A DNA stretch of 63,084 bases, counting the filler, from Rhabdomonas costata (taxonomy: Eukaryota), in the NCBI GenBank assembly GCA_019059605.1. It is 33 parts of 33 records of this genome, joined end to end, with 100 filler letters (N's around TTAATTAATTAA, not from the genome) between each part and the next. Parts side by side here need not be neighbours in the genome. Positions count along the whole stretch, not along the records: positions 49,791 to 51,604 come from JAHMHO010008675.1; positions 51,705 to 53,518 come from JAHMHO010008676.1; 31 more parts are not named here. One strand, written 5' to 3'. The position numbers and the translations under genes were made by a program. The notes beneath the pieces were generated by a model. The model ran no database searches and was not told the origin of the DNA. It worked only from the letters and a program-made list of their open reading frames with translations. Positions 1 to 52,886 of this stretch are shown here, piece after piece. Position 1 is the first letter of the stretch. Each line of letters starts with the position of its first letter.

Positions 1-70
1 GTGTTGGGTGTGTGGGGTCGGGAAGGGAGGGTGGGGGACGAGAGAAAGCAAAAGGGGAGGAAAGGCCCAC

Positions 71-1603
71 CAGATGTCCCAGCTCGGTTCCACGTTGTGG
101 CCCATGCCCGCCTCGGGAGGCATGTAGAACGGAGTCCCCTTGTGGCCTACCGTGGAGACGTCGGGGGAAATCGCCAGCCCGAAGTCCTTCGCGCACAAGG
201 GTCACATCACAGCAGTAAGCATGTGCTCTCTAGATGTGCACGCCTGTGTTGTTTCAGTTGCAGCGTATCCCAACAACCGTAATACAGTAGTGACAATGCA
301 TTGGCCTCACGGGCGGAACAAAAGTGCGGAAAAAAAAGCAAACATAAATTCACGCAAAGGCCTGGAACCCCCCCCCCTCCAATCCCCTCTTCTTCGCACC
401 ACAATCTTGACCACTTTCTGGTTGGTGAGCATGATGTTCGCGGGCTTGAGATCGCGGTGGACAAGCCTCACTGAGGGGAAGGAGAGCGCGGGTGGAGGGA
501 GGAGAAACCTTATCATGAAACCTTGCATTTGTTTCCACTATCAACGTGTCAAAATAACGTACGAGTCCACAATTTGCATCTCAAACTTTAAGTGTTCAAG
601 AGGATACAAGAACAATTATAAGAAAGCAGCGTTTAAACACCCCGAGCGTGGAACAAAGCGCACCCAACGCCATCAACCAACAAATGGGAAACGTCAGCAT
701 CAAACCGGGAATCCAGAAGACCTCAGGATACCTCAGATGAATTGAGATAAGATGATGCGCGAAAAGAGATATGAAAGCAAACCGGAACGATGGGAGAGAG
801 TGTGTGTGTGTGAGTTCCAAAACACGGACCCTCGGAGTGCAGGTAGTCCAGGCCGTCCAGGATCTGTCGCAGATACGTTTGGAGCTCCCCCATGGCAATT
901 CTCCCGGCAAAAGTCAGCACCTGCTGCAGGGAGTTGTGCAGGTGCTCCATTATAATCAGCACCCGCTGATTGTCCTCGCAGTATACCACGTCGTACAGCT
1001 GCACGATGTGCGGGTGGCCGGACTGAAGCTTCCTCAGAGTTTCGATCTGGTTTTCAAATGCAGAGCAGCAGAAACCAAAGCAGTTGAAGGGAAACACTCT
1101 CTCGCAATTGTAAACCGCTGAAACAATGAAAAAGTGCAGAGCACAGCCTGTAGAAAGGCATCGTCCACTGCGAGACAAGAGGTGCATAACTCATAAAACA
1201 GCCAGGGTTGAAGCTCCCGCAACCAGCCTCTCACGACATTGCTGCCCTACAGCATAGACACGACAATCGCAACTGGAGAGTGACGTGGCGTGGAAGGACG
1301 AAATGCATATAGGGTACGAAAGGGAAAATGAGGTGACGGTGTTGGGCGGTAGGAGGGCGGAAGGAAGGCGGCTTTCCGTACCTCATAGACCAACTCCAGG
1401 TTGGAGTCCCTCTCGATCTCCTTCATCGCGACCTGCCTTCCGGTGGACTCTTCCACAGACAGGTACACAACTCCAAAGCTGCCGCGGCCCAGCAGCTCCT
1501 TGCTCAGGTGGTAGAGTTGGCCCTTGTTGCCCTTGACTTGCCGGACTCCCTTCATCACAAGCGGCATGTAGGGCCCCCGATAGAGAGACGAGATATCGTC
1601 CAT
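71..1603 (-). CDS. Ser/Thr protein kinase, 5' part (exons 1603-1382, 1046-830, 470-400, 186-71)
   Basis: Spliced frame gives LGRGSFGVV (G-loop), VAMK, HPHIVQLYD, HRDLKPANI, DFG, GTPFYMPPE, WDIW. All introns are GT-AG with consistent phases. Confidence 0.95.
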
Positions 1604-1816
1604 CGTTTATTCTCGCTTGTTGTTGTTGTTGTCGAAAGTGACGAAGAAAGAGGGGTCACAAAAAGGAACCAGGTAATAGGGGAAGCAGGGGAGCGGGAAA
1701 GACAAAAAACGTAAAAGGAAAGAAAAGGGAAGGGAAGGAAAATCAACAGATGAAAATCTGAAAGTTGGAAGAAGAGAAGGAGGAGGAGGACGCGAGCCTG
1801 AACCCGTGGACCCACC

Positions 1817-1916
1817 NNNNNNNNNNNNNNNNNNNNNNNNNNNNNNNNNNNNNNNNNNNNTTAATTAATTAANNNNNNNNNNNNNNNNNNNNNNNNNNNN
1901 NNNNNNNNNNNNNNNN
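1817..1916. other. Artificial contig spacer (N44-TTAATTAATTAA-N44); recurs about every 1.9 kb, 32 times in the window
   Basis: Identical 100-nt N-padded six-frame-stop linker between contigs of near-identical length. Confidence 0.99.
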
Positions 1917-2001
1917 GGGTGGGTGGGAACAGGGAAAGGGACATGCGCTTCATCGGGTGACGGTGTCTTTTGATGTGAGTGTGTGTGCGTGGGTGTGGCA
2001 G

Positions 2002-3155
2002 CCCTTCGGCACGGTGGCGCTGGTCGCGGAGTCCACCTACACCAGTGCCCAGTCGAAGTTCGCCTTCCGCAGCGTGGGTATGATCACGGTTCCCGGGAAG
2101 AAGGCGGTGCTGCACGTCTTTGAGCCGCTGTACCGGATCCCAGCCCACCCCCTTCCTGCCTCGCCCACAACCGGGACAACCGTCTCCTTCCCCAGCACCT
2201 GCTCGGCCGGCTTCAGCAACCCCTTCCTGCGCGTTGCGAACACGAACCCAGCTATTCATATGGAGGAACCTCCCATAGGTCTGCTCGCAATGCGGGGATT
2301 CGCAGAGTGAGGTACAACGTTATGGGCTTCAGAAAGGTTGGGGTGGCAAATACGTTCGAACTAATGTGCACTTGGTCGAACCAGGGTGCAAATCTTTCCA
2401 GCGTGTGGGATGCGCCGCTTCCCGCATCTGCTGCCTACTGCTTCTCCACCTGCTTCCCTGCTAATCAGAAAGAAGGGGCCCTGTCATGTGATGCAAATAA
2501 CCCCAGGAGGTCGATCTCTTAGGCCACCTTTGATGATGCTGTGAGCTGGCTCGAGAAGAGGGGCAGCACAAACAAATTTTGCTCGAAATCATGATGATTG
2601 TATGTGAAGCAAAGCGTTCTGCATTGGTCGCTGGCCATTGTGGAGTTGGGGAGGGCTTGACGAAGGGCTGGTACTTTTTGGTGCTCATAGGATGTTGTGC
2701 CTGCTCACCCCCACCCCCACTGCTTCAGATGTGATGGTCCTCAACTCGTGGCGGACGGTCTCCAGGGGAACACTGCATGACCTGACAGAACTCTACGAGC
2801 GGGTATTGTTTTCGAGTGGATGTGGTGTATAATGGCGCGGGTCATGTCAAAAATGAGAATTGCAACTGAAATGTTAATACGGAAACCCCCGTTGTGAGCT
2901 GCTGGTGTTGACATGTTAAGAAATACGACGCGCAGAAGGGATGTGACCCTGGGAAACGGAACGCTACTGTTGGTGCAGGGGATGCGGCTGTACATTGGCG
3001 GAGCCCTTTCGAAGGCCGAGGAGGTGTTTGGGGAGGCCGCTGCGCTGTGCCCGGAGGATGGCCCCACCCGGCTCCTGCTGCGGCTGTGCCGTAGCAGTGG
3101 GAGGTGCCCGCGGGGCGAGACCTGGGATGGAGTAATTCACTTTGACCACAAGTGA
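2002..3155 (+). CDS. Class III adenylate/guanylate cyclase, C-terminal part (exons 2002-2129, 2691-2802, 2979-3155)
   Basis: FGTVALVAESTY...FAFRSVGMITVPGKKAVLHVFEPL matches the end of the cyclase catalytic domain. The tail A..F......PED.P....L..C......WDGVIHFDHK* is the TPR-like tail of this family. GT-AG phases are consistent. Confidence 0.8.
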
Positions 3156-3832
3156 GGGGTGCGTACGAAGTGCAAGGGAGAGAACATGAGAGCCGTGGCT
3201 AGATGATTGCCTTCGTCTGGGCGTGTTATATCCGCTCATTCCAGATTCCACAACAAAGGGTCAGTGAAGGTGTCAGCGGAGAGATACGAGAGCCTGCTGC
3301 TCGAGTTCCGGTGCTGTCTTCCCAGTTCCGCTTCTCACCCCCCACCCGTTCTGCCGTTTGCGTTCTGTTGCGCCTGATGTGTGCATCTTTTGGGGGCGAT
3401 GACTTTGCGGGTGAGTCGTTGGCGATTCCCCGCCAGATTTAAGCTATACCCCTCCGCGCGCGATAGCTCGCACACTCACACACCAGGGCGATGCATCCCT
3501 GCGTGCACTTTTTCTGTCATTGTGTGAATATGTGGGTGGGTGGTGTCCTGGCATAGATCTGCCAGCGACTCAGCGGTTTTCTTTGTTCTTTTGACAGTAG
3601 TTTGAACGGGTAGGGTAGCTGCACGGTCGTGTGGTTGTACATGGTGCGGTTGTGCGCCTTTTTTCTTCCGTTGGTTGCGCACCCTCTCACGCACCTTCTC
3701 CCCATCTCACCACAACCGCATAACCCCCACCCNNNNNNNNNNNNNNNNNNNNNNNNNNNNNNNNNNNNNNNNNNNNTTAATTAATTAANNNNNNNNNNNN
3801 NNNNNNNNNNNNNNNNNNNNNNNNNNNNNNNN

Positions 3833-5645
3833 TTTGTTGAGTCAGCTGCCCAGCCCTGTGCAAACTTTGTTGACTCGGTTTTTGAACCAAAAGAATGATT
3901 CCACCGACTTTTCATCATCACCTTTTCTCCGTCCTGTAGCATTTTTGCCTGCGTTTCAAGCGTCTCCTCGTGCCCTGACTGATCCGCACACCGTTTCTCC
4001 TGCTGTGGATGCCGCTTGGCGCCTGCTCAACCCCGCGGTAGTAGGGCCCTGCATTGAGCTTGTTCATACCAGAAAGAGGTGGTCTTATCTCGTTCCTCAT
4101 ATGTGTCAGGCTCTGCACCTAGCGCGGTACTCCGACGTACTTTCCGTGCTGCAGGTTTTGGCAGGAATGAGCGTAACAGGAGAGGAAGCGTTAGCCTCGG
4201 TTCTGGAGCTTCCACACTGGATGTTGCTGTGCAAAGCAGGGTTGAGAGCCGTTTCTGCAAATGGAGAATCTAGATGGTCCTTGGACGCTGATGAGGAATG
4301 GAGTGAAATCGTGCAGAATCTGATCAGCCAGGCCATTGCACCCTCCGTGGCACTTACGATCGAGTTACTTTCTGTGCTTTCAGCCGTGAAACGGAGCCTG
4401 AGGTTGTTTGTGCTGCCTTTCCCTTTCTTTCGTGTATCTCTTCTGTGAGCTCAAGCGGGTGCGGGTTCGCTCGGAATTCTGCGAGAAAGAAGTTTTCACA
4501 CTGTTTGCTCTTGTGGCTATAGGTCATATTGCACAGAGGCTGTCTGCTTGGAAGTCGATGGCGATCACCGGAAATTGTGTAGTTTTGTGGCAACGATACT
4601 TCAGCTGGACGAACTATGCAAGCCTTCAGACGCAGGTGTGCGCTGGGGCTTTGGTTCCCGTAATCTTTCTGCACATGTTGCGCTGCCTCATTTACACTTT
4701 TTTTTTTGCTTCTTGAAAATGTTACTGGTGAGGCGTCGGCGTGCAACCGTGTTCTTTTGCAGGCTATCAACTGGAAGAGATAGCTGAAGTGTTCATCGAT
4801 CTTTTGCGGCAACTCGGAAGCAGCCCGCCACCCCTTTTGCGGTGCATGTGCCGAGTGCTGTGCTTGTACGATTTTAGCGAGATTCTCTTCAACTGCTGTA
4901 CTGCTGTTATCCGATTCACGGGCAACGGGGCAGTGGAATGGCCAAATAAGGAGGAGGTTGACGCCCTGCCCCCACCTTTTGGCCTGCTCGACCGCGTGTG
5001 GATGCAACCTCGCAGTCCGGACGGCTCCGAGAGGGGATCCTGGGCAGGTCCAGAGTCCAACACCAAAGTCGTGCATAGCTTATACTGCCACTGCCTGGAG
5101 GTGCTGCATCAGAAGTGCCCAAGCCCACGTTTCGCATGGCTGCTTGCTGAACGGAGGGTTAGGGTGGGAAGTTATGGCCGAGCGCTTGCTTTGTACGCGG
5201 AAGCGATTGATCTGGAGTCCTGCGATCCTGAAGAGAGTTTGGTGTTGGCTAACCTTCTCAAGGTATCATCGGTTGCCGTTCATTTTGTCGTTATTTTTCG
5301 TGTGAAATATGCACGTTTGCCAAATCCTACGTTCTTTTGTTTGCCAGATGCCGCCATTTTGTTTGTTGCGAAATTTGGCTGCTGAGCCACCATTCGAAAT
5401 GAGAGTTATTTCGTTGTCCTCCTTCACTCCTCATTGTGAATTGCGCAATTGGACAATCACGCAGTGTTTTGTTCCCGTACGCCGAGGTCATTGTGAACTG
5501 TTTTCATTACCGTTTTAATTGCGTTCGCCTGCATCAAGCAATATCCTACGGGCCGATATTTTTGTGTTTGATTTCCATCCAGTGCTGCATCAAGACTCAT
5601 CACCTGGCTGATGCAGCCGTGCTGCATCAGTTTCTGCCCCCCACA
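3833..5645 (+). CDS. INTS8: Integrator complex subunit 8-like, C-terminal region (exons approx 3833-4390, 4763-5262, 5583-5645)
   Basis: PRFAWLLAERRVRVGSYGRALALYAEA and spliced LANLLK|CCIKTHHLADAAVLHQFL resemble the INTS8 C-terminal TPR region (..YSAALHYYLQA..; MIKCC..L..H..VAILCQFL). Confidence 0.6.
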
Positions 5646-6725
5646 CAANNNNNNNNNNNNNNNNNNNNNNNNNNNNNNNNNNNNNNNNNNNNTTAATTAA
5701 TTAANNNNNNNNNNNNNNNNNNNNNNNNNNNNNNNNNNNNNNNNNNNNTGTTTTGTGGAAATAGGTGCCCCTCCCGCATCCTGATCCTGCCCTCTTCGTG
5801 CCAAGTGTATCTCCCCGCCTCCCCCCTTGTCAAGGATACGGGGGGCGGGCTTGACCAACGACGAGGGACGGGAAGGTCAAAAAATGTTCATTTTTTCTTC
5901 ACAAAAAATGTGAGCCGGATGGTAAAGCTTTTAGCTGCAAAAAAATGAAATTGCTGGGATATGTCGAACTGGAGACTCATTATTCAACTCAGGACTCAGG
6001 TGAGAAGGACGGGCGTGGTGACACCCAGGGCTGCTATCTGAGCAACTATTCGACATTTACTGCATCCTTTAAAAGGCACCCAACTGTGATCCCCGCATGT
6101 GAGCCACCAATCACTCAACAATTGCTGCCCAAGCAGAAACGAAAACAGCTCCTTTCATAAAACCAGTCCCGTCGCGAAGAGTATATCGACGCGCGCCGCG
6201 CGCGCGCGCGCACACACGCACACACACACAGTATGTGCGCAGTTTTGATGTTGAAAGTTTCAATTCCTAACCGCTCGCCTTTTCCCACGTGTGAGAAGCT
6301 AGGCTCCTGGGTTCCAGTTTCCCTGCAGGTGGTGTATGGAAGGGCTTTGAGATGCTCCACTGGAGCGCGCACGCTGAGACTGTTCGTTTAGGGTGTCCCA
6401 CCCACATCCTCGGTGCACGATTGGAGCCTTCACTAATATTGGGAATTTCTACCCCCGCCGTGGGGAGCTCAGAGACTGCGGGCAGACATCTCCCCCTCTT
6501 TCCCAATATGCTCCCTTTCCCTCCTCTCTGTCTCAGCCAGAGTGCTAACGTGAAGGTCTTCTCCAGCCAGTGCCACGGCCTCGTTTGCTTACCCTCAATC
6601 CGAAGCTGCCCATCTTCTCTGAGCTGCTTTCATCCCCTCTGGTGTCAACTGAATCTCAGGTTGGGACCTGGGACCGTTGGACCGTTGGCACTATATGCCT
6701 TGCCACATGAAGGCATGCTCCTTCC

Positions 6726-7025
6726 TTATGGCGGCAGCAGCCACGTCCTCACAGTAGCGTCCATGCTGCTGCTGACCAGAAGGCTGCCGTGCGCCGCGCA
6801 GTGGGTGACGGGGTACGGGCGCCCGCGCAGGGTGGCCAGCACGGCCCCAGTGCGCAGCTCCCAGACCCTCAGCGTGGCATCATGGCTCGCGGTGACCACC
6901 CGCCGGCCCTCTCCCACAACCGTCGCGTGGAGCACCCAGTCGGAGTGCCCGGCCAGAGTTAGCCCAGGTTTCCCACTGCGAAGATCCCACAGCTTCGCGG
7001 TGTGATCGGCAGAGCCGGACAGCAC
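6726..7025 (-). CDS. WD40-repeat protein, terminal exon
   Basis: SGSADHTAKLWD, GHSDWV, TASHDATLRVWE, SSSMDATVRTW. CAG acceptor at 7028-7026 and TAA stop. Confidence 0.92.
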   Translation of the reverse strand: MLSGSADHTAKLWDLRSGKPGLTLAGHSDWVLHATVVGEGRRVVTASHDATLRVWELRTGAVLATLRGRPYPVTHCAAHGSLLVSSSMDATVRTWLLPP

Positions 7026-7664
7026 CTGAAGGAAGGGCAGGGCGCCCGGGAATTGATGATCCGATATGAACACTCCTCCAACATAACCGTGAAGGTGCAT
7101 TCCCGAAGGTGCATTGTGTGGTATAGACACAGATGGAAAATACCGTACAGAGCAGGAATGTCACGTGTTCAGCAGCGGAGAACGAAAAACACATGGAAAA
7201 AAGAATGGAGGCATCGGCGCAAAGGTACACCAGAGAGCGAGAGCAAAGAAATGGCATGGATCAGGCGGATTTTTCCATCGCCCGCTGTTCCTGTTTACCA
7301 ATGAGGGGAGTAGCACAGTGGTGCGAAGAAGCACAAAAACAACAGTGAAGCATAGTTTCGTCATTTCATGATTTGTTTCTTGGCGTCCCTTTCCACGTTT
7401 CGAGTTCTGGTTCGCACGTTTACTGTGAAGGGCAAATAACAGGGATCTCTGTAAAGGGAGAGAGAGAGAGAGAGAGAACAGCAGAGACAGAGACCACGAC
7501 GATTACAGGCAAATATGCAGAAAGTAGGAAAATCAGCGCAACACTGCGAGGTTACACCAACAAANNNNNNNNNNNNNNNNNNNNNNNNNNNNNNNNNNNN
7601 NNNNNNNNTTAATTAATTAANNNNNNNNNNNNNNNNNNNNNNNNNNNNNNNNNNNNNNNNNNNN

Positions 7665-7784
7665 TTGGGGCAACATTAATTCAGGACGAAGGCCAGCCGC
7701 CCCCCCCATGGCACGTCCCCGTCTCATCCGTCCGCTCTAGCTGCGACGGCTGCTGGCCTTCGTCCTGAATTAATGTTGCCCCAA
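7665..7784. repeat. Perfect 33-bp inverted repeat (7665-7697 / 7752-7784) at contig start
   Basis: ttggggcaacattaattcaggacgaaggccagc ... gctggccttcgtcctgaattaatgttgccccaa. Confidence 0.95.
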
Positions 7785-8315
7785 TCGATCTACCAAGTCC
7801 AAAACATTTAACGCCAGCAAACGTCAGAAACACGGTTAAACGTTTAACGACTCCCCCACTTCCCCAAAAAATAAACACAACTGTCCAAATACCTTGGGAC
7901 AGATGTGTTCGGGGAGTTGGAGTACACACTCGATCACTGCGTGTGTGTTCATTTCAAACAGAACGCAATGTATAAGAGACTCGTGGGCACATCACGTGTT
8001 CACTGCTCTGACATGCTGGTATTGCCCTCATATCATGAGGAGACCATTCAAATGTTTCCTCACCGGGATGGGTTTACACGGTGCAATGCCACACAGCTTT
8101 CATAGAGTGTCCACAAGCCCGAGACCGTGCTCCAACTGCAAAAGCACACCCTGTGCATCTATAGCTCACCGATCCTTTTGTTCGGTTGGTTATGAAGCAG
8201 AAGCCGAATTTATACTACATCCGCCTCACAGCTTGCCACGAGTCCTTGATGTTGTCCCTCTGTTGGTTGTGTGGTAAGCTGCGACTCAGTGAAAACCGAA
8301 CCCGTTCCCACCGAC

Positions 8316-49790: not shown

Positions 49791-51510
49791 CTACTCTGTC
49801 GTTCCCGCTGGGGCCACCTTTGTTGCTGTTTTCCGGGATCCCTTGCGGTCCTTGGTCTATCTTCGGCCACGGGTGGGTCCTTGGTATCTTCGGCCACGGG
49901 TGGGCCCCTACTCCATCGTGGACCCCGCCGAAGTCAAGAACATCCTCCACGAGCAAGGTCATCAGTTGACCAACATCCTCGGACTTCCAGGAGAGCGTCC
50001 TCACAGTGTTGCGGGCAATCTACCCCCTCAGCCAACAGAGGCCGCACCCACCGCAGGAAATCCCTCAACCGTCGTGCATTTGCCCGATAAAGACCATTTC
50101 CCCCAGTGGGACGGGCAACGGTCCCCATTGTTGGTTTGACTGCACCACACCGAACAGATTCGGAGCGCATAAGGGCTCAGCGTTGGGGTCGGAGGATGCG
50201 GCCACTTGAGGGCCGGGCAGTTGACACCTGGAGCCAGTTTGTCGCGATTCTGCGGGAGCGTTTCCCATGAATGAGTCTCTCAATCATGTGTGGTAGTGCC
50301 CACAACGAGAGGATGCTCTGAAGGAGAGGAATGAGATGAACATTTGCCAGATCTGCGAGTTTTGGTGGAAGAAGAGGCACCCTGACTTTGTGAGCCGTCC
50401 GATGAAGGACATGAGACACCATTTCACGATGTGTCCTCATGCCTGCCAGTGCACGATGCTTAGAGATCGTGTGACTCACACGGCGTTCGGATGCCGGTTC
50501 ATCACGGAGCATGATCTCGAGCAACTTCGCAAGGACTTGCTCTCCATGTCTCCAGAGGACCGAGAAGGCGCGAGGAATATGATGGATGGCACTTCTTGAG
50601 ACTCCGCCTTTGGCGAATCGTTTTGAGGGATTCGATGTACTCTGCTACCTCGCGTGCCAAATGGGTGGCATGCAAAACTCCCCCTCAGGATGTGGGTGGG
50701 GATAATTTGATCTCTCCCCTTGGTCGAGAAGCGAAAGAGATGAGGTCCACCCAGTACCGAAACGCTCGTGTGCATCCTATTTACGGTTCCCACTGTTTGC
50801 CAGGGGACCCGGCTCGTATTTGCTCATCCGATTGCCCACACCGTGTCCTACGGAGCGAAGTTCTCTAGCTCTTGAATGGACATTTTTCCACAAGAGTCTG
50901 GGCAATGTGCTTGCGCTAACGGCTGGAAGGCTGGGAGGCGTCGGCCTCTCGAACTGGTGGCGTGCCTTAAGAGGGGAGCCTCTTGATCAGACGTTCTCCA
51001 ACTATAGCGCTCTCGTGGACGAGGTGCCTCAGCATGCCTTAGTGACACTCCTTGAGGAGCACATTGAAAGCATTGAGTCTGGCCGCGAGATCTTTCGTCC
51101 CATGTGTCGGGCGCACCTCAAGATCGACAAGTTCTCGCGGAAGAAGCAGGACTCCAACACCTGGCGTCCAATCCAGGCTTCTGACGTGTTGAGCTTCATG
51201 CTCTTCAACCACGTCTTCGGGGAGTTCGTTGAGCTTGGTGAGTTGACCCACCCCCCAAGCGTGGTCCAGATGGATGCCCCGAAATGGGAGGAGCATATCG
51301 CTGGTGAGATGAACGCTGGTCTCGACTATTCCGACTATGACCAGACTGAGGCTGCCAATGGTCTCTATGCGACCATGCGATCACCGTCTCCACTGCTGGG
51401 AATGTTGGCTGCTCCGGGAGGATGGCTGTCTGCCTGGCCACCACGGCTGCCTACTACCTACTACACTCCAACTGCTAAATTATCACGAGAAATGCAGTTG
51501 ATGCTACCCA
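49791..51510 (+). other. Degenerate RNA-virus-derived cassette: protease-like remnant, Cys/His-rich segment, RdRp (motifs F and A); candidate endogenous viral element
   Basis: HLKIDKFSRKKQDSNTWRPIQASD (motif F) and GLDYSDYDQT (motif A) in ORF 50820-51521. Upstream frameshifted FDCTT..GAHKG. No introns; several frameshifts and stops. Confidence 0.8.
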
Positions 51511-51804
51511 CTGTTCTGTAACAAAGCTGAAACGGCTCGCCAAATCTAACCTAAACAAAATGGGAGTGCAACACTCACCAACCACAATCACACACCAAAA
51601 AAAANNNNNNNNNNNNNNNNNNNNNNNNNNNNNNNNNNNNNNNNNNNNTTAATTAATTAANNNNNNNNNNNNNNNNNNNNNNNNNNNNNNNNNNNNNNNN
51701 NNNNTTGTGTTGGGGTACGGTACCAAGAGAGAGGGCACTACGATCTTGGAAGGGGAGACGGGTTGGGACCCAGGAACTCTGCAAGCCGGGCCCACCCACC
51801 ACAC

Positions 51805-52886
51805 CTGGGTTCAGGAACGCCGGGAGGTTGTCCGGGTGCAGCACGTAGTCCCACAGTGAGAGGGTCTTGCTGGCCACATCGTAGGACACCCGCTCCCGCT
51901 CGCTATTCCCCAGGAAGGTACCGTAGAGCAGGGAGTGGTGCTCCTCCGCGAGAAGCTCCAGCAGCTCCGTGCTGAACTCGAACGCCGTGGGGTGCATCAG
52001 CAGAAGCTGATACACCGCCCACAGGAACTGCAGGAAGATCGGGCAGTACTCCGTGCTGAAGGAAGAGGGGCGCAGCCCCTCGACCTGCGTGCCGGGGGGG
52101 ACACATGCATGCAAAAGGGCCTTCACCGCCTGACCCGCCTGTTTCATCCCTGCGTCTGCGGTCACTCCTGTTTGCTCCGGTGTGCCAACCTGAACAGATG
52201 ATGTTTGTGTTATGCCGTCCTCACATGTCCCTTTTTTAATGAAATCAGTCACGGCAACAGCGAACAGAGTGTTTAGCGTCTTCGAAAAGGCAAGGCAATG
52301 TCTTGCAATGGTTAGCAAGAAGGAGAAAGACATGACCTGTTCCTTCAAAATACCTTGCACTTGTTCGTTGGTACGCTGTGGTTCCAGTTCATCCTTTGTC
52401 AACCAGCGCTCACGCTTCTGTCATATTCTTCCGCGCCAAAACATCTTTTGTAAATCTGGCATCTGAAAACCGTTTGCCTCAACCAACCTCGCAAAACATT
52501 GAATTCTTGCATATGAGCAAAAAGTGATAAAAAAGTGCTAAGGTGGGTTGGAGGTGAGAGGATATCTTTCAAACGCTCATTTCCCGACCCGACCCGAAGC
52601 ATGTGCAGCAGTATGTCATATCATGGAGGAAAACGACCTGATGGAAAAGGAGTGGCAAAATAGACCGTCGGAAAGGAATGAAGAGACTTCGGTGAAGGGA
52701 AAAGAAGTGCAGGGAGGATCTGAGTACCTCATTGCCACAGCGGTCCCCGAAGCGGTGGCCCATGCTTAGCCAGTCCTTCTCGATCAACGTGATCAGCCCG
52801 CGCACAGTTCGGTACTCTGGGTCCCGCAGAAGCTGCACTATGCTGCAGACCTGACTGGTGCGGTCCCAGCCATCCGTGCAGTGCAT
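51805..52886 (-). CDS. Myotubularin-family phosphoinositide phosphatase fragment (exons 52886-52728, 52084-51805)
   Basis: HCTDGWDRT active site, DP.YRT..G...[25 protein letters not shown]....[23 protein letters not shown]. Confidence 0.95.

What the first reader, a model, noticed from the sequence alone, without database searches (positions are those of the whole stretch)
49791..51604. Fossil positive-strand RNA virus (protease - Cys/His domain - RdRp) among the DNA contigs of a flagellated protist
Seen: an intron-less contig whose + strand encodes, in order, a protease-like stretch, a Cys/His-rich segment, and an RdRp palm/fingers region. The RdRp has motif F (LKIDKFSRKKQDSNTWRPIQASD) and motif A (GLDYSDYDQT). 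After a frameshift near 51380 it continues as a pre-motif-B-like segment (CLATTAAYYLLHSNC*IITRN), then gives way to non-viral-looking sequence before motifs B and C. Several frameshifts and stops break the polyprotein. Known: K..(E/D)...K......R.I...D plus D.S.(Y/F)D.T, with a chymotrypsin-like protease upstream, is the Pisuviricota layout (astro-/poty-/sobemo-like), and these viruses have no DNA stage. Inference: this is a non-retroviral endogenous viral element recording a divergent, possibly undescribed RNA virus lineage and linking it to a protist, probably euglenozoan, host.
Basis: partly seen in the sequence, partly recalled or inferred. Interest (0 to 1): 0.85.

Follow-up and report, generated by a model that had tools for sequence, protein, structure and literature searches.

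The report
Decayed RNA-virus polymerase fossil in DNA contig
This 1.8-kb contig carries broken pieces of the polymerase gene and of a second gene of an unnamed picorna-like RNA virus, most likely an old viral insertion in a eukaryotic microbe's DNA, a known kind of fossil; the claimed protease and Cys/His parts are not supported.

Summary
The core observation holds. Window 50689-51454 is the N-terminal half of a viral RdRp: best hit P0001, E 2.8e-39 among 1.84 billion proteins, and 8 of the 9 hits carry Pfam RdRP_1. Motifs F and A are present. A frameshift-aware alignment shows four frame changes and one in-frame TGA. Homology stops before motif B.

The proposed layout "protease - Cys/His - RdRp" is not supported. 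The contig's 5' end (49798-49920) matches ORF2, the gene that lies downstream of the RdRp in the exogenous relatives. It also holds a 27-nt tandem duplication. The 768 nt in between (X) match nothing, including the conserved protease domain of the relatives.

The contig is therefore a scrambled, decayed mosaic. The best reading is a non-retroviral endogenous viral element from an unnamed Pisuviricota clade known from metatranscriptome contigs (confidence 0.7).

DNA origin is supported only indirectly: an intron in the neighbouring contig and whole-genome-amplification primer remnants at contig ends. No reads or genome were available. The host taxon could not be checked. RNA-virus EVEs in protists are already known from dinoflagellates and trypanosomatids, so this is a new member of a known kind.

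The parts
49798..49920 (+). Fragment of the viral ORF2 (the 3'-proximal ORF of the exogenous relatives, presumed structural). It corresponds to about residues 101-149 of a 516-522 aa protein. It is cut by the contig's 5' end.
   Evidence: tblastx against L001/L002/L003 gives 53% over 34 aa at E 3.4e-9, and against L004 61% over 31 aa. phmmer gives E 1.3e-9. The DP alignment gives 19/38 (L001) and 19/30 (L004) identities, with core AVFRDPLRSLVYLRP at 49825-49869. The capsid function of ORF2 is not shown.
49847..49904 (+). In-frame tandem duplication (27-nt period, 2.1 copies) inside the ORF2 fragment. It repeats YLRPRVGP(W/Y).
   Evidence: TRF score 100 with 93% matches. The repeat finder family D2 gives 23 nt at 96%. 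The duplication is absent from L001 and L004.
49921..50688 (.). Segment X, 768 nt of unexplained origin.
   Evidence: There is no Pfam or NCBIfam hit on either strand. There is no match to any part of 20 related viral loci. DP alignment to the ORF1a C-termini scores at the level of shuffled DNA. ORF continuity is at background: cost 4 against a mean of 3.44 over 704 host windows. Composition is intermediate. Database and Atlas searches are blank.
50689..51454 (+). N-terminal half of a viral RdRp (P0001 residues 6-265) with motifs F and A. It is broken by four frame changes (near 50798, 50836-50839, 50978-50984, 51379-51388) and one in-frame TGA (50873-50875). It lacks four residues before motif A and lacks motifs B and C.
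   Evidence: Supported. Identity is 129/251 to P0001 and 125/253 to the L001 RdRp.
51117..51185 (+). RdRp motif F (K..D.....K......R.I).
   Evidence: The residues fall on invariant columns K153, D155, K161 and R168 of the family.
51318..51347 (+). RdRp motif A (D....D).
   Evidence: The residues fall on invariant columns G223, D225 and D230.
51455..51604 (.). Non-viral tail. A 7-nt unit CCTACTA occurs 2.1 times across the junction (51450-51464). GC drops to 0.425. The last 16 nt are A/C only, which looks like an amplification-primer remnant.
   Evidence: There is no homology. The repeat comes from TRF.

Best explanation
The contig is a non-functional fossil, that is, a non-retroviral endogenous viral element. 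It comes from a positive-strand RNA virus of an unnamed Pisuviricota clade. The exogenous members of that clade have 7-9 kb genomes of the form ORF1a (C-terminal protease-like domain) - in-frame stop - RdRp - ORF2.

Inferred mechanism: viral RNA was copied into DNA by a cellular reverse transcriptase, with template switches that placed an ORF2 piece, an unrelated 768-nt stretch and the first half of the RdRp side by side. The product entered the DNA of a eukaryotic cell and then decayed neutrally through frame changes, a stop codon, a 27-nt duplication and a 4-codon loss. It encodes no working protein.

Shown here: the viral origin of two pieces, their scrambled order, and the disabling lesions. 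Inferred only: reverse transcription, chromosomal integration and the identity of the host.
For: 1. Viral origin. The RdRp half gives E 2.8e-39 with 55% identity to P0001. Of the 9 hits, 8 carry Pfam RdRP_1 above its curated cut-off. In the tree the contig sits inside a clade with 99% SH-aLRT support together with P0001, P0010-P0012 and L023. The ORF2 piece matches at E about 1e-9.

2. Decay. There are four frame changes and one in-frame stop in about 253 codons. They are not concentrated in long homopolymers: the longest runs nearby are 3, 3, 4 and 2 nt. A 27-nt tandem duplication is present. Four residues, including a nearly invariant T, are missing before motif A. The terminal branch is 0.71, against 0.24-0.33 for the exogenous clade members P0001, P0011 and P0012; the near-identical pair P0010 and L023 have 0 and 0.06.

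3. Mosaic. ORF2 material lies upstream of the RdRp, whereas L001, L004 and L006 have the RdRp first and ORF2 after it. The RdRp is cut before motif B and is followed by sequence of different composition.

4. DNA context. The neighbouring contig holds two myotubularin exons about 670 nt apart, which implies an intron. Only 3 long ORFs occur in 63 kb. Of the 33 contigs, 21 start with a G/T-only run of at least 9 nt and 23 end with an A/C-only run of at least 9 nt. This matches the K10 part of a primer used for single-cell DNA amplification (PMC10781638, passage read).

5. Precedent. Fragmentary RdRp and capsid EVEs occur in dinoflagellates (PMC10235124, passages). A 119-codon RdRp N-terminal EVE with motif F occurs in a trypanosomatid (PMC11108086, passages).
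Against: - No read-level or whole-genome evidence was available. Neither the lesions nor the three junctions are verified in raw data.
- No recognisable host gene or repeat lies on the contig. X and the tail match nothing in the other 32 contigs.
- No paralogous copy was found in the window or in earlier scan notes.
- The same primer core is also used to make cDNA from viral dsRNA (PMC10168098, passage), so primer remnants alone do not prove a DNA template.
- Amplification can create chimeras.
- The composition of X is intermediate between host and viral windows.
- The contig's own ORFs give no Pfam RdRp hit. The assignment rests on homologues.
Confidence: 0.7

Rival explanations
1. Amplification or assembly artefact. 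Nucleic acid of an exogenous virus infecting the cell or a neighbour was co-amplified and joined to unrelated fragments. The frame changes would then be errors of low-coverage amplified data.
For: Primer remnants show an amplified library. The same primer core is used for cDNA work. There are three junctions to unexplained sequence within 1.8 kb. No reads are available to check.
Against: The lesions number four frame changes, a stop, a 27-nt duplication and a 4-codon loss in under 900 nt of viral sequence. By contrast, the 109 myotubularin codons next door align to Pfam without a break. The frame changes are not homopolymer-type errors. Two pieces of one viral clade lie in the same orientation on one contig. 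Amplification of fragmented DNA should not copy RNA; this last point is an inference.
Confidence: 0.12
2. The DNA is real, but it is not a chromosomal insertion of the flagellate. It could be an EVE of another eukaryote in the sample (prey, symbiont or contaminant), or an extrachromosomal viral DNA form made by a retroelement reverse transcriptase in an infected cell.
For: No host-specific sequence lies on the contig. The host taxon is unverified. The contig's GC of 0.552 is like that of both the other contigs (0.478-0.568) and the exogenous relatives (0.52-0.57).
Against: Nothing speaks directly against it. The degree of decay favours long residence in a genome over a fresh DNA form. The tail composition is host-like, but it is only 134 nt.
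Confidence: 0.12
3. X would then be the decayed C-terminal part of the viral ORF1a (protease and a Cys/His domain), colinear with the RdRp, and only too diverged to recognise.
For: X lies directly upstream of the RdRp. The 100-aa ORF ends in a TGA at 50597-50599, about 90-100 nt before RdRp homology starts. This resembles the 81 nt between the read-through TGA (4624-4626) and the start of homology (4708) in L001. Most of ORF1a is poorly conserved between L001 and L006. The composition of X is not clearly host-like.
Against: The last 200 or so residues of ORF1a are conserved among L001, L006 and P0005 (E 1e-11 to 1e-6), although their RdRps are less alike (P0001 shares 35% and 37% with those of L006 and P0005) than the contig's is to L001 (125/253). 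Frameshift-tolerant alignment of those domains to 49895-50700 scores 39-43, against 29-52 for shuffled DNA. ORF continuity of X equals background. No family hit was found. An ORF2 fragment at the 5' end breaks colinearity in any case.
Confidence: 0.12
4. It is a live viral gene expressed through programmed frameshifting or an altered genetic code.
For: Relatives use recoding between ORF1a and the RdRp, with an in-frame TGA or TAG. A recoded EVE exists in Blastocrithidia (PMC11108086, passage).
Against: The four frame changes lie inside the conserved RdRp core, where P0001 and L001 read straight through. Motifs B and C are absent. Gene order is scrambled.
Confidence: 0.01

Closest known systems
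Unnamed exogenous clade: P0001 and P0010-P0012; IMG/VR contigs L001-L003; metagenome contig L023
   Same: The RdRp N-half is 54-57% identical and falls in the same 99%-supported clade. The ORF2 fragment is 50-63% identical to ORF2 of L001 and L004.
   Different: Those are intact genomes or genes: ORF1a, in-frame stop, RdRp of about 470-497 aa with motifs A-C, then ORF2. The contig has scrambled order, half an RdRp, four frame changes and a stop.
dinoRNAV (Sobelivirales-like) EVEs in Symbiodiniaceae genomes (PMC10235124; search listing and passages read)
   Same: They are fragments of the RdRp and capsid genes of a positive-strand RNA virus in protist DNA. They have internal stops, indels and low similarity to exogenous relatives, and retroelement-mediated integration has been proposed.
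   Different: The viral lineage is different. I did not compare sequences with dinoRNAV. No relict dinoflagellate spliced leader was found in the window (the motif was recalled). There the RdRp and capsid ORFs were generally found in isolation on separate scaffolds. Here two fragments share one 1.8-kb contig.
Tombus-like virus EVEs of trypanosomatids: BtriTLV-EVE and LeppyrTLV-EVE (PMC11108086; search listing and passages read)
   Same: They are euglenozoan examples of a partial N-terminal RdRp ORF (119 codons) that retains motif F and is degraded. Capture by a transposon has been proposed.
   Different: Those are tombus-like, a different phylum-level branch by recalled taxonomy. Here the relatives carry Pfam RdRP_1. 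No transposon was recognised beside the present element.
Classified Pisuviricota RdRps (calici-, picorna-, poty-, astro- and sobemo-like)
   Same: The palm-domain RdRp fold and motifs match. The family profile hits calicivirus polymerases at E 2.7e-13. Foldseek gives TM-scores of 0.6-0.7 to picorna-, poty-, astro- and calici-like RdRps. P0001 also matches Pfam RdRP_4 at E 1.1e-6.
   Different: Sequence identity to named viruses is only 12-19%. The genome plan of the relatives, with a single in-frame stop before the RdRp and a 7-9 kb genome, is not that of any family I could match here.

Membership tests
Viral RdRp of the picorna-like supergroup (Pfam RdRP_1, PF00680) | Significant match of the sequence itself to the family profile | tested here: not met
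   Pfam hmmscan of 7 contig ORFs at E up to 10 gave no RdRp hit. The fragment lacks the part of the profile that scores best.
Viral RdRp of the picorna-like supergroup (Pfam RdRP_1, PF00680) | Homology to proteins that are members | tested here: met
   There are 9 homologues with E up to 1e-3, the best at 2.8e-39. Of these, 8 of 9 score 24.6-69.4 bits on RdRP_1, whose cut-off is 23.9.
Viral RdRp of the picorna-like supergroup (Pfam RdRP_1, PF00680) | Motif F (K/R-rich fingers loop) and motif A (D-x4-D) | tested here: met
   They lie at 51117-51185 and 51318-51347 on invariant family columns.
Viral RdRp of the picorna-like supergroup (Pfam RdRP_1, PF00680) | Motif B (SG..T..N) and motif C (GDD) | tested here: not met
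   Relatives have GGNPSGQ.LTS.LNS and GDD (invariant S284, G285, T289, N293, G326, D327, D328). In the contig, homology stops at P0001 residue 265. It is a gene fragment, not a polymerase.
Non-retroviral endogenous viral element (EVE) | Sequence derived from a virus without a DNA stage | tested here: met
   Shown by the RdRp and ORF2 homology.
Non-retroviral endogenous viral element (EVE) | Disabling lesions or truncation incompatible with a replicating genome | tested here: met
   The lesions are four frame changes, one in-frame stop, truncation before motif B and scrambled gene order.
Non-retroviral endogenous viral element (EVE) | Physical continuity with host chromosomal DNA | tested here: inconclusive
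   The flanks (X and the tail) are non-viral by every search but match no identifiable host sequence. The tail composition is host-like, but the tail is short.
Non-retroviral endogenous viral element (EVE) | Present in DNA (not RNA) reads, and heritable | not testable with these tools
There is only indirect support from an intron in the neighbouring contig and from DNA-amplification primer remnants.
   Relatives have a conserved C-terminal ORF1a domain. The contig upstream region does not match it above shuffled controls and has no Pfam protease hit.
Clade of P0001 / L001-L003 / L023 | Phylogenetic placement within the clade | tested here: met
   This comes from a quick IQ-TREE run on 19 rows with no rows dropped. 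The contig lies in a 6-row clade with SH-aLRT 99. There was no bootstrap, and the single outgroup, L013, is very long-branched.

The most novel reading that the evidence does not exclude
This would be the first genomic fossil of an orphan clade of 7-9 kb stop-read-through Pisuviricota viruses so far seen only as metatranscriptome contigs. It would tie that clade to a flagellated protist host. Its scrambled ORF2 - X - RdRp order would record template switching by a host reverse transcriptase. Segment X may then be a remnant of the element that did the copying; a gag-like W..F...L...F string at about 50235-50270 is an unsupported hint.
Probability: 0.3. Interest if true: 0.6.

Novelty: new member of a known kind. 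Interest (0 to 1): 0.45.

Why it matters
Most RNA viruses found in metatranscriptomes have no known host. An EVE in a host genome is one of the few kinds of sequence evidence that can assign one and show that the association is old. If reads confirm that this locus sits in the protist's DNA, it gives a candidate host group for an unnamed Pisuviricota clade. It would also add to the short list of RNA-virus fossils in protists, currently dinoflagellates and trypanosomatids. It is also a caution for annotation: the longest ORF of the contig (271 aa) is not a gene, and part of it runs out of frame with the viral homology.

Tried and rejected
- Reverse-transcriptase/gag reading. I first considered that K..DK..RKK....WRPI plus DYSDYDQ was a retroelement RT and that DTWSQFVAILRERFP (50091-50270) was a gag. 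I rejected the RT idea after searches showed RdRp homologues. The gag idea has no Pfam support at E up to 10.
- Tombus/noda-like assignment. This came from the recalled motif GLDxSxFDQ. It is not supported, because the relatives hit RdRP_1 and RdRP_4.
- PDB search with the ORF alone gave 4 chance hits (E 0.09-0.18) and no RdRp.
- NCBIfam gave nothing relevant.
- Rfam found 0 families at gathering threshold on the whole window and 0 at E up to 1 on the contig. No tRNA was found.
- Repeats of the contig elsewhere in the window: only chance-level hits.
- Segment X was searched in several ways, all blank. These were word-indexed homologue searches of the 100-aa ORF and the 115-aa ORF (lengths 'longer', which the tool itself calls weak evidence), and ESM Atlas look-ups of the 100-aa ORF (best 0.84, below the lead threshold) and of the minus-strand 155-aa ORF.
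- The metagenome scan for closer relatives returned only 3 loci at 54-55%, two of them the same contigs as L001 and L002.
- ORF2 could not be shown to be a capsid. The AlphaFold model has mean pLDDT 34.6 and is unusable, so I ran no fold search on it. hhalign to the S-domain coat ORF of L006 gave probability 0.07%. The PDB profile search gave no meaningful hit. There is no Pfam family.
- A relict dinoflagellate spliced leader (recalled motif) gave 0 matches.
- Host taxon: no tool result bears on it.
- Earlier scan notes: nothing.
- A literature search for a described clade (Sobelivirales + readthrough + protist + metatranscriptom) found 0 papers. This single search does not show that the clade is unpublished.
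Full report
WHAT THE WINDOW IS

The 63,084-base window is not one locus. It is 33 contigs of 1,803-1,821 bases joined by N...ttaattaattaa...N spacers. The finding covers exactly one of them, 49791-51604.

Of the 33 contigs, 21 begin with a G/T-only run of at least 9 nt and 23 end with an A/C-only run of at least 9 nt. The commonest run length is 10. This fits the K10 part of the primer 5'-TGTGTTGGGTGTGTTTGG-K10-NN, which a passage of PMC10781638 describes for whole-genome amplification of heat-fragmented single-cell DNA. The same 18-mer with N12 is also used to prime cDNA from viral dsRNA (PMC10168098, passage).

Our contig ends in a 16-nt A/C-only run, so its terminal A-run is not a demonstrable poly(A) tail. 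Its 5' end has no primer-like run, so the contig simply breaks off there.

Only 3 stop-to-stop ORFs of at least 250 aa exist in the 63 kb. The next contig carries two exons of a myotubularin-type phosphatase on the minus strand. Pfam PF06602 positions 237-289 map to 52728-52886 and positions 296-351 map to 51890-52057. The exons are about 670 nt apart, which implies an intron. The assembly therefore holds unspliced genomic DNA of a eukaryote. I could not determine which eukaryote.

THE RdRp PART IS REAL

The contig's own ORFs hit no Pfam, NCBIfam or PDB family. However, a full HMMER scan of 1.84 billion representative proteins with ORF 50706-51518 found 9 proteins at E up to 1e-3. The best is P0001, at E 2.8e-39 and 55% identity. 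Of the 9, 8 carry Pfam RdRP_1 above its curated threshold.

A frameshift-tolerant protein-to-DNA alignment (my script) maps P0001 residues 6-265 onto 50698-51454 with 129/251 identities. It maps the L001 RdRp residues 28-290 onto 50689-51454 with 125/253 identities. The path needs four changes of frame, near 50798, 50836-50839, 50978-50984 and 51379-51388. It also crosses one in-frame TGA at 50873-50875.

The stretch read in the third frame (about 50840-50975...ANGWKAGRRRPLELVACLKR) was also found independently by tblastx. Hence the 271-aa ORF is partly out of register with the viral protein.

The frame changes are not at long homopolymers. Four residues before motif A, including a nearly invariant T, are missing.

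Homology ends at 51454 (...CLATTAAY), about 15 residues before motif B of the relatives. Motifs B and C are absent. A 7-nt unit, CCTACTA, is repeated across this junction. The following 134 nt have GC 0.425, against 0.56 for the viral part.

THE 5' END IS ORF2, NOT PROTEASE

Related loci were fetched from IMG/VR (20 loci). L001 (8,849 nt) has ORF1a at 34-4626, an in-frame TGA, the RdRp ORF at 4627-6120, and ORF2 at 6438-8006. L006 has the same plan with a TAG.

The contig's first codons (49792-49893) match L001 6759-6860, which lies inside ORF2. The match is 53% over 34 aa at E 3.4e-9 by tblastx and E 1.3e-9 by phmmer. In the DP alignment it is 19/38 to L001 and 19/30 to L004. The core is AVFRDPLRSLVYLRP.

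The match ends near 49920, within and just after an in-frame 27-nt tandem duplication at 49847-49904.

ORF2 is conserved between L001 and L004 (48% over 515 aa) and L008 (23%), and it has a basic N-terminus. Its capsid role is only presumed. It has no Pfam family, the AlphaFold model is unusable (pLDDT 34.6), and there is no profile link to the S-domain coat ORF of L006 or to PDB.

So a gene that follows the RdRp in the virus lies upstream of it here.

THE MIDDLE 768 nt (X, 49921-50688) IS UNEXPLAINED

The relatives do have a conserved protease-like domain at the C-terminus of ORF1a, immediately before the RdRp. L001 vs L006 gives 27% over 214 aa at E 1e-11. P0005 matches both.

Frameshift-tolerant alignment of these domains to 49895-50700 scores 39-43. 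Shuffled DNA scores 29-52 (5 shuffles each).

Pfam on ORFs of both strands gives nothing. Word-indexed searches and the ESM Atlas give nothing.

The number of stops or frame switches needed to read through X is 4. The mean over 704 windows of the other contigs is 3.44, and 81% of them need 4 or fewer. The appearance of a frameshifted polyprotein in X is therefore background.

The Cys/His density of ORF 50297-50599 is 11 per 50 aa. In the window, 8 of 332 ORFs of at least 80 aa reach 12 or more, so this is unremarkable.

A third-order Markov comparison puts the RdRp part among viral windows (+0.006 per nt), X in between (-0.006) and the tail on the host side (-0.064). Host windows score -0.024 ± 0.014 and viral windows +0.011 ± 0.011. 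This comparison is inconclusive for X.

WHICH VIRUS

In a quick maximum-likelihood tree of 19 rows (the contig read through with X at each break), the contig falls in a clade of six with SH-aLRT 99. The other five are P0001, P0010, P0011, P0012 and L023. The contig's terminal branch is 0.71, against 0.24-0.33 for P0001, P0011 and P0012; the near-identical pair P0010 and L023 have 0 and 0.06.

No closer relative turned up in JGI metagenomes: 3 loci at 54-55%.

The family profile finds calicivirus polymerases best among solved structures (E 2.7e-13). An AlphaFold model of P0001 (pLDDT 74.6) matches picorna-, poty-, astro- and calici-like RdRps in BFVD at TM-scores of 0.6-0.7, but at only 12-19% identity.

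It is not absent from public data.

INTERPRETATION

Two pieces of one viral clade lie in the same orientation but in the wrong order. They are separated and followed by non-viral sequence. They carry four frame changes, a stop, a duplication and a small deletion, and they sit among intron-bearing DNA contigs.

This is what a non-retroviral EVE looks like. It parallels the fragmentary RdRp and capsid EVEs of dinoflagellates (PMC10235124, passages). It also parallels the 119-codon RdRp N-terminal EVE with motif F in Blastocrithidia triatomae (PMC11108086, passages).

Reverse transcription by a cellular retroelement with template switching is the usual explanation. Here it is inferred, not shown. 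A rough argument suggests modest neutral decay: there are no further stops in about 253 codons but four indels. That estimate is mine, not a tool result.

The main rival is an amplification or assembly chimera of exogenous viral nucleic acid. I rate it at about 0.12, because the lesions are many and are not of the homopolymer type, while the neighbouring host exons are clean.

Whether the DNA belongs to the flagellate, and whether that flagellate is a euglenozoan, remains untested.

VERDICT

The element is a new member of a known kind. Its value is as a possible host anchor for an orphan viral clade, pending read-level confirmation.

Noticed in passing
window 1-63084 (all 33 contigs): The contigs are all about 1.8 kb. 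Of the 33, 21 start with a G/T-only run of at least 9 nt and 23 end with an A/C-only run of at least 9 nt (mode 10). One contig (28744) starts with a 41-nt G/T-only run. These look like untrimmed K10 parts of a whole-genome-amplification primer, so the terminal 10-12 nt of each contig are probably primer sequence, not genome sequence.
   Followed up: partly
window 51890-52057 and 52728-52886, minus strand: Two exons of a myotubularin-like phosphatase (Pfam PF06602 positions 296-351 and 237-289, including the [11 protein letters not shown] active-site stretch) lie about 670 nt apart. This indicates a spliceosomal intron and therefore genomic DNA.
   Followed up: partly
L001 4624-4626 (TGA); L006 4153-4155 (TAG): In the exogenous relatives, ORF1a and the RdRp ORF are in the same frame, separated by a single stop codon. 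This suggests the RdRp is expressed by stop-codon read-through. L007 and L008 instead have overlapping ORFs in different frames.
   Followed up: no
L001 ORF1a residues about 1327-1525; L006 ORF1a 1173-1379; P0005 1-88: A conserved C-terminal ORF1a domain carries a G(T/S)S(D/G)G.CGS string, which by recall looks like a chymotrypsin-like protease motif. It ends 5-35 residues before the read-through stop in L001 and L006. No Pfam family matches it.
   Followed up: no
P0008 (676 aa) and P0009 (1101 aa): In these distant members of the family the RdRp continues, in one ORF, into a long C-terminal extension with a K/R-rich linker. Part of the P0009 extension is weakly similar to ORF2 of L001 and L008 (E 0.005 and 3e-4). 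This may be an RdRp-structural protein fusion.
   Followed up: no
window 50115-50132, 50780-50797, 51498-51515: There are three imperfect copies (72-100% identical to the reference copy, the middle one) of an 18-nt string ending CCCA(C/T)TGTT. One lies in X, one at the first RdRp frame change and one in the tail. This is probably chance.
   Followed up: no
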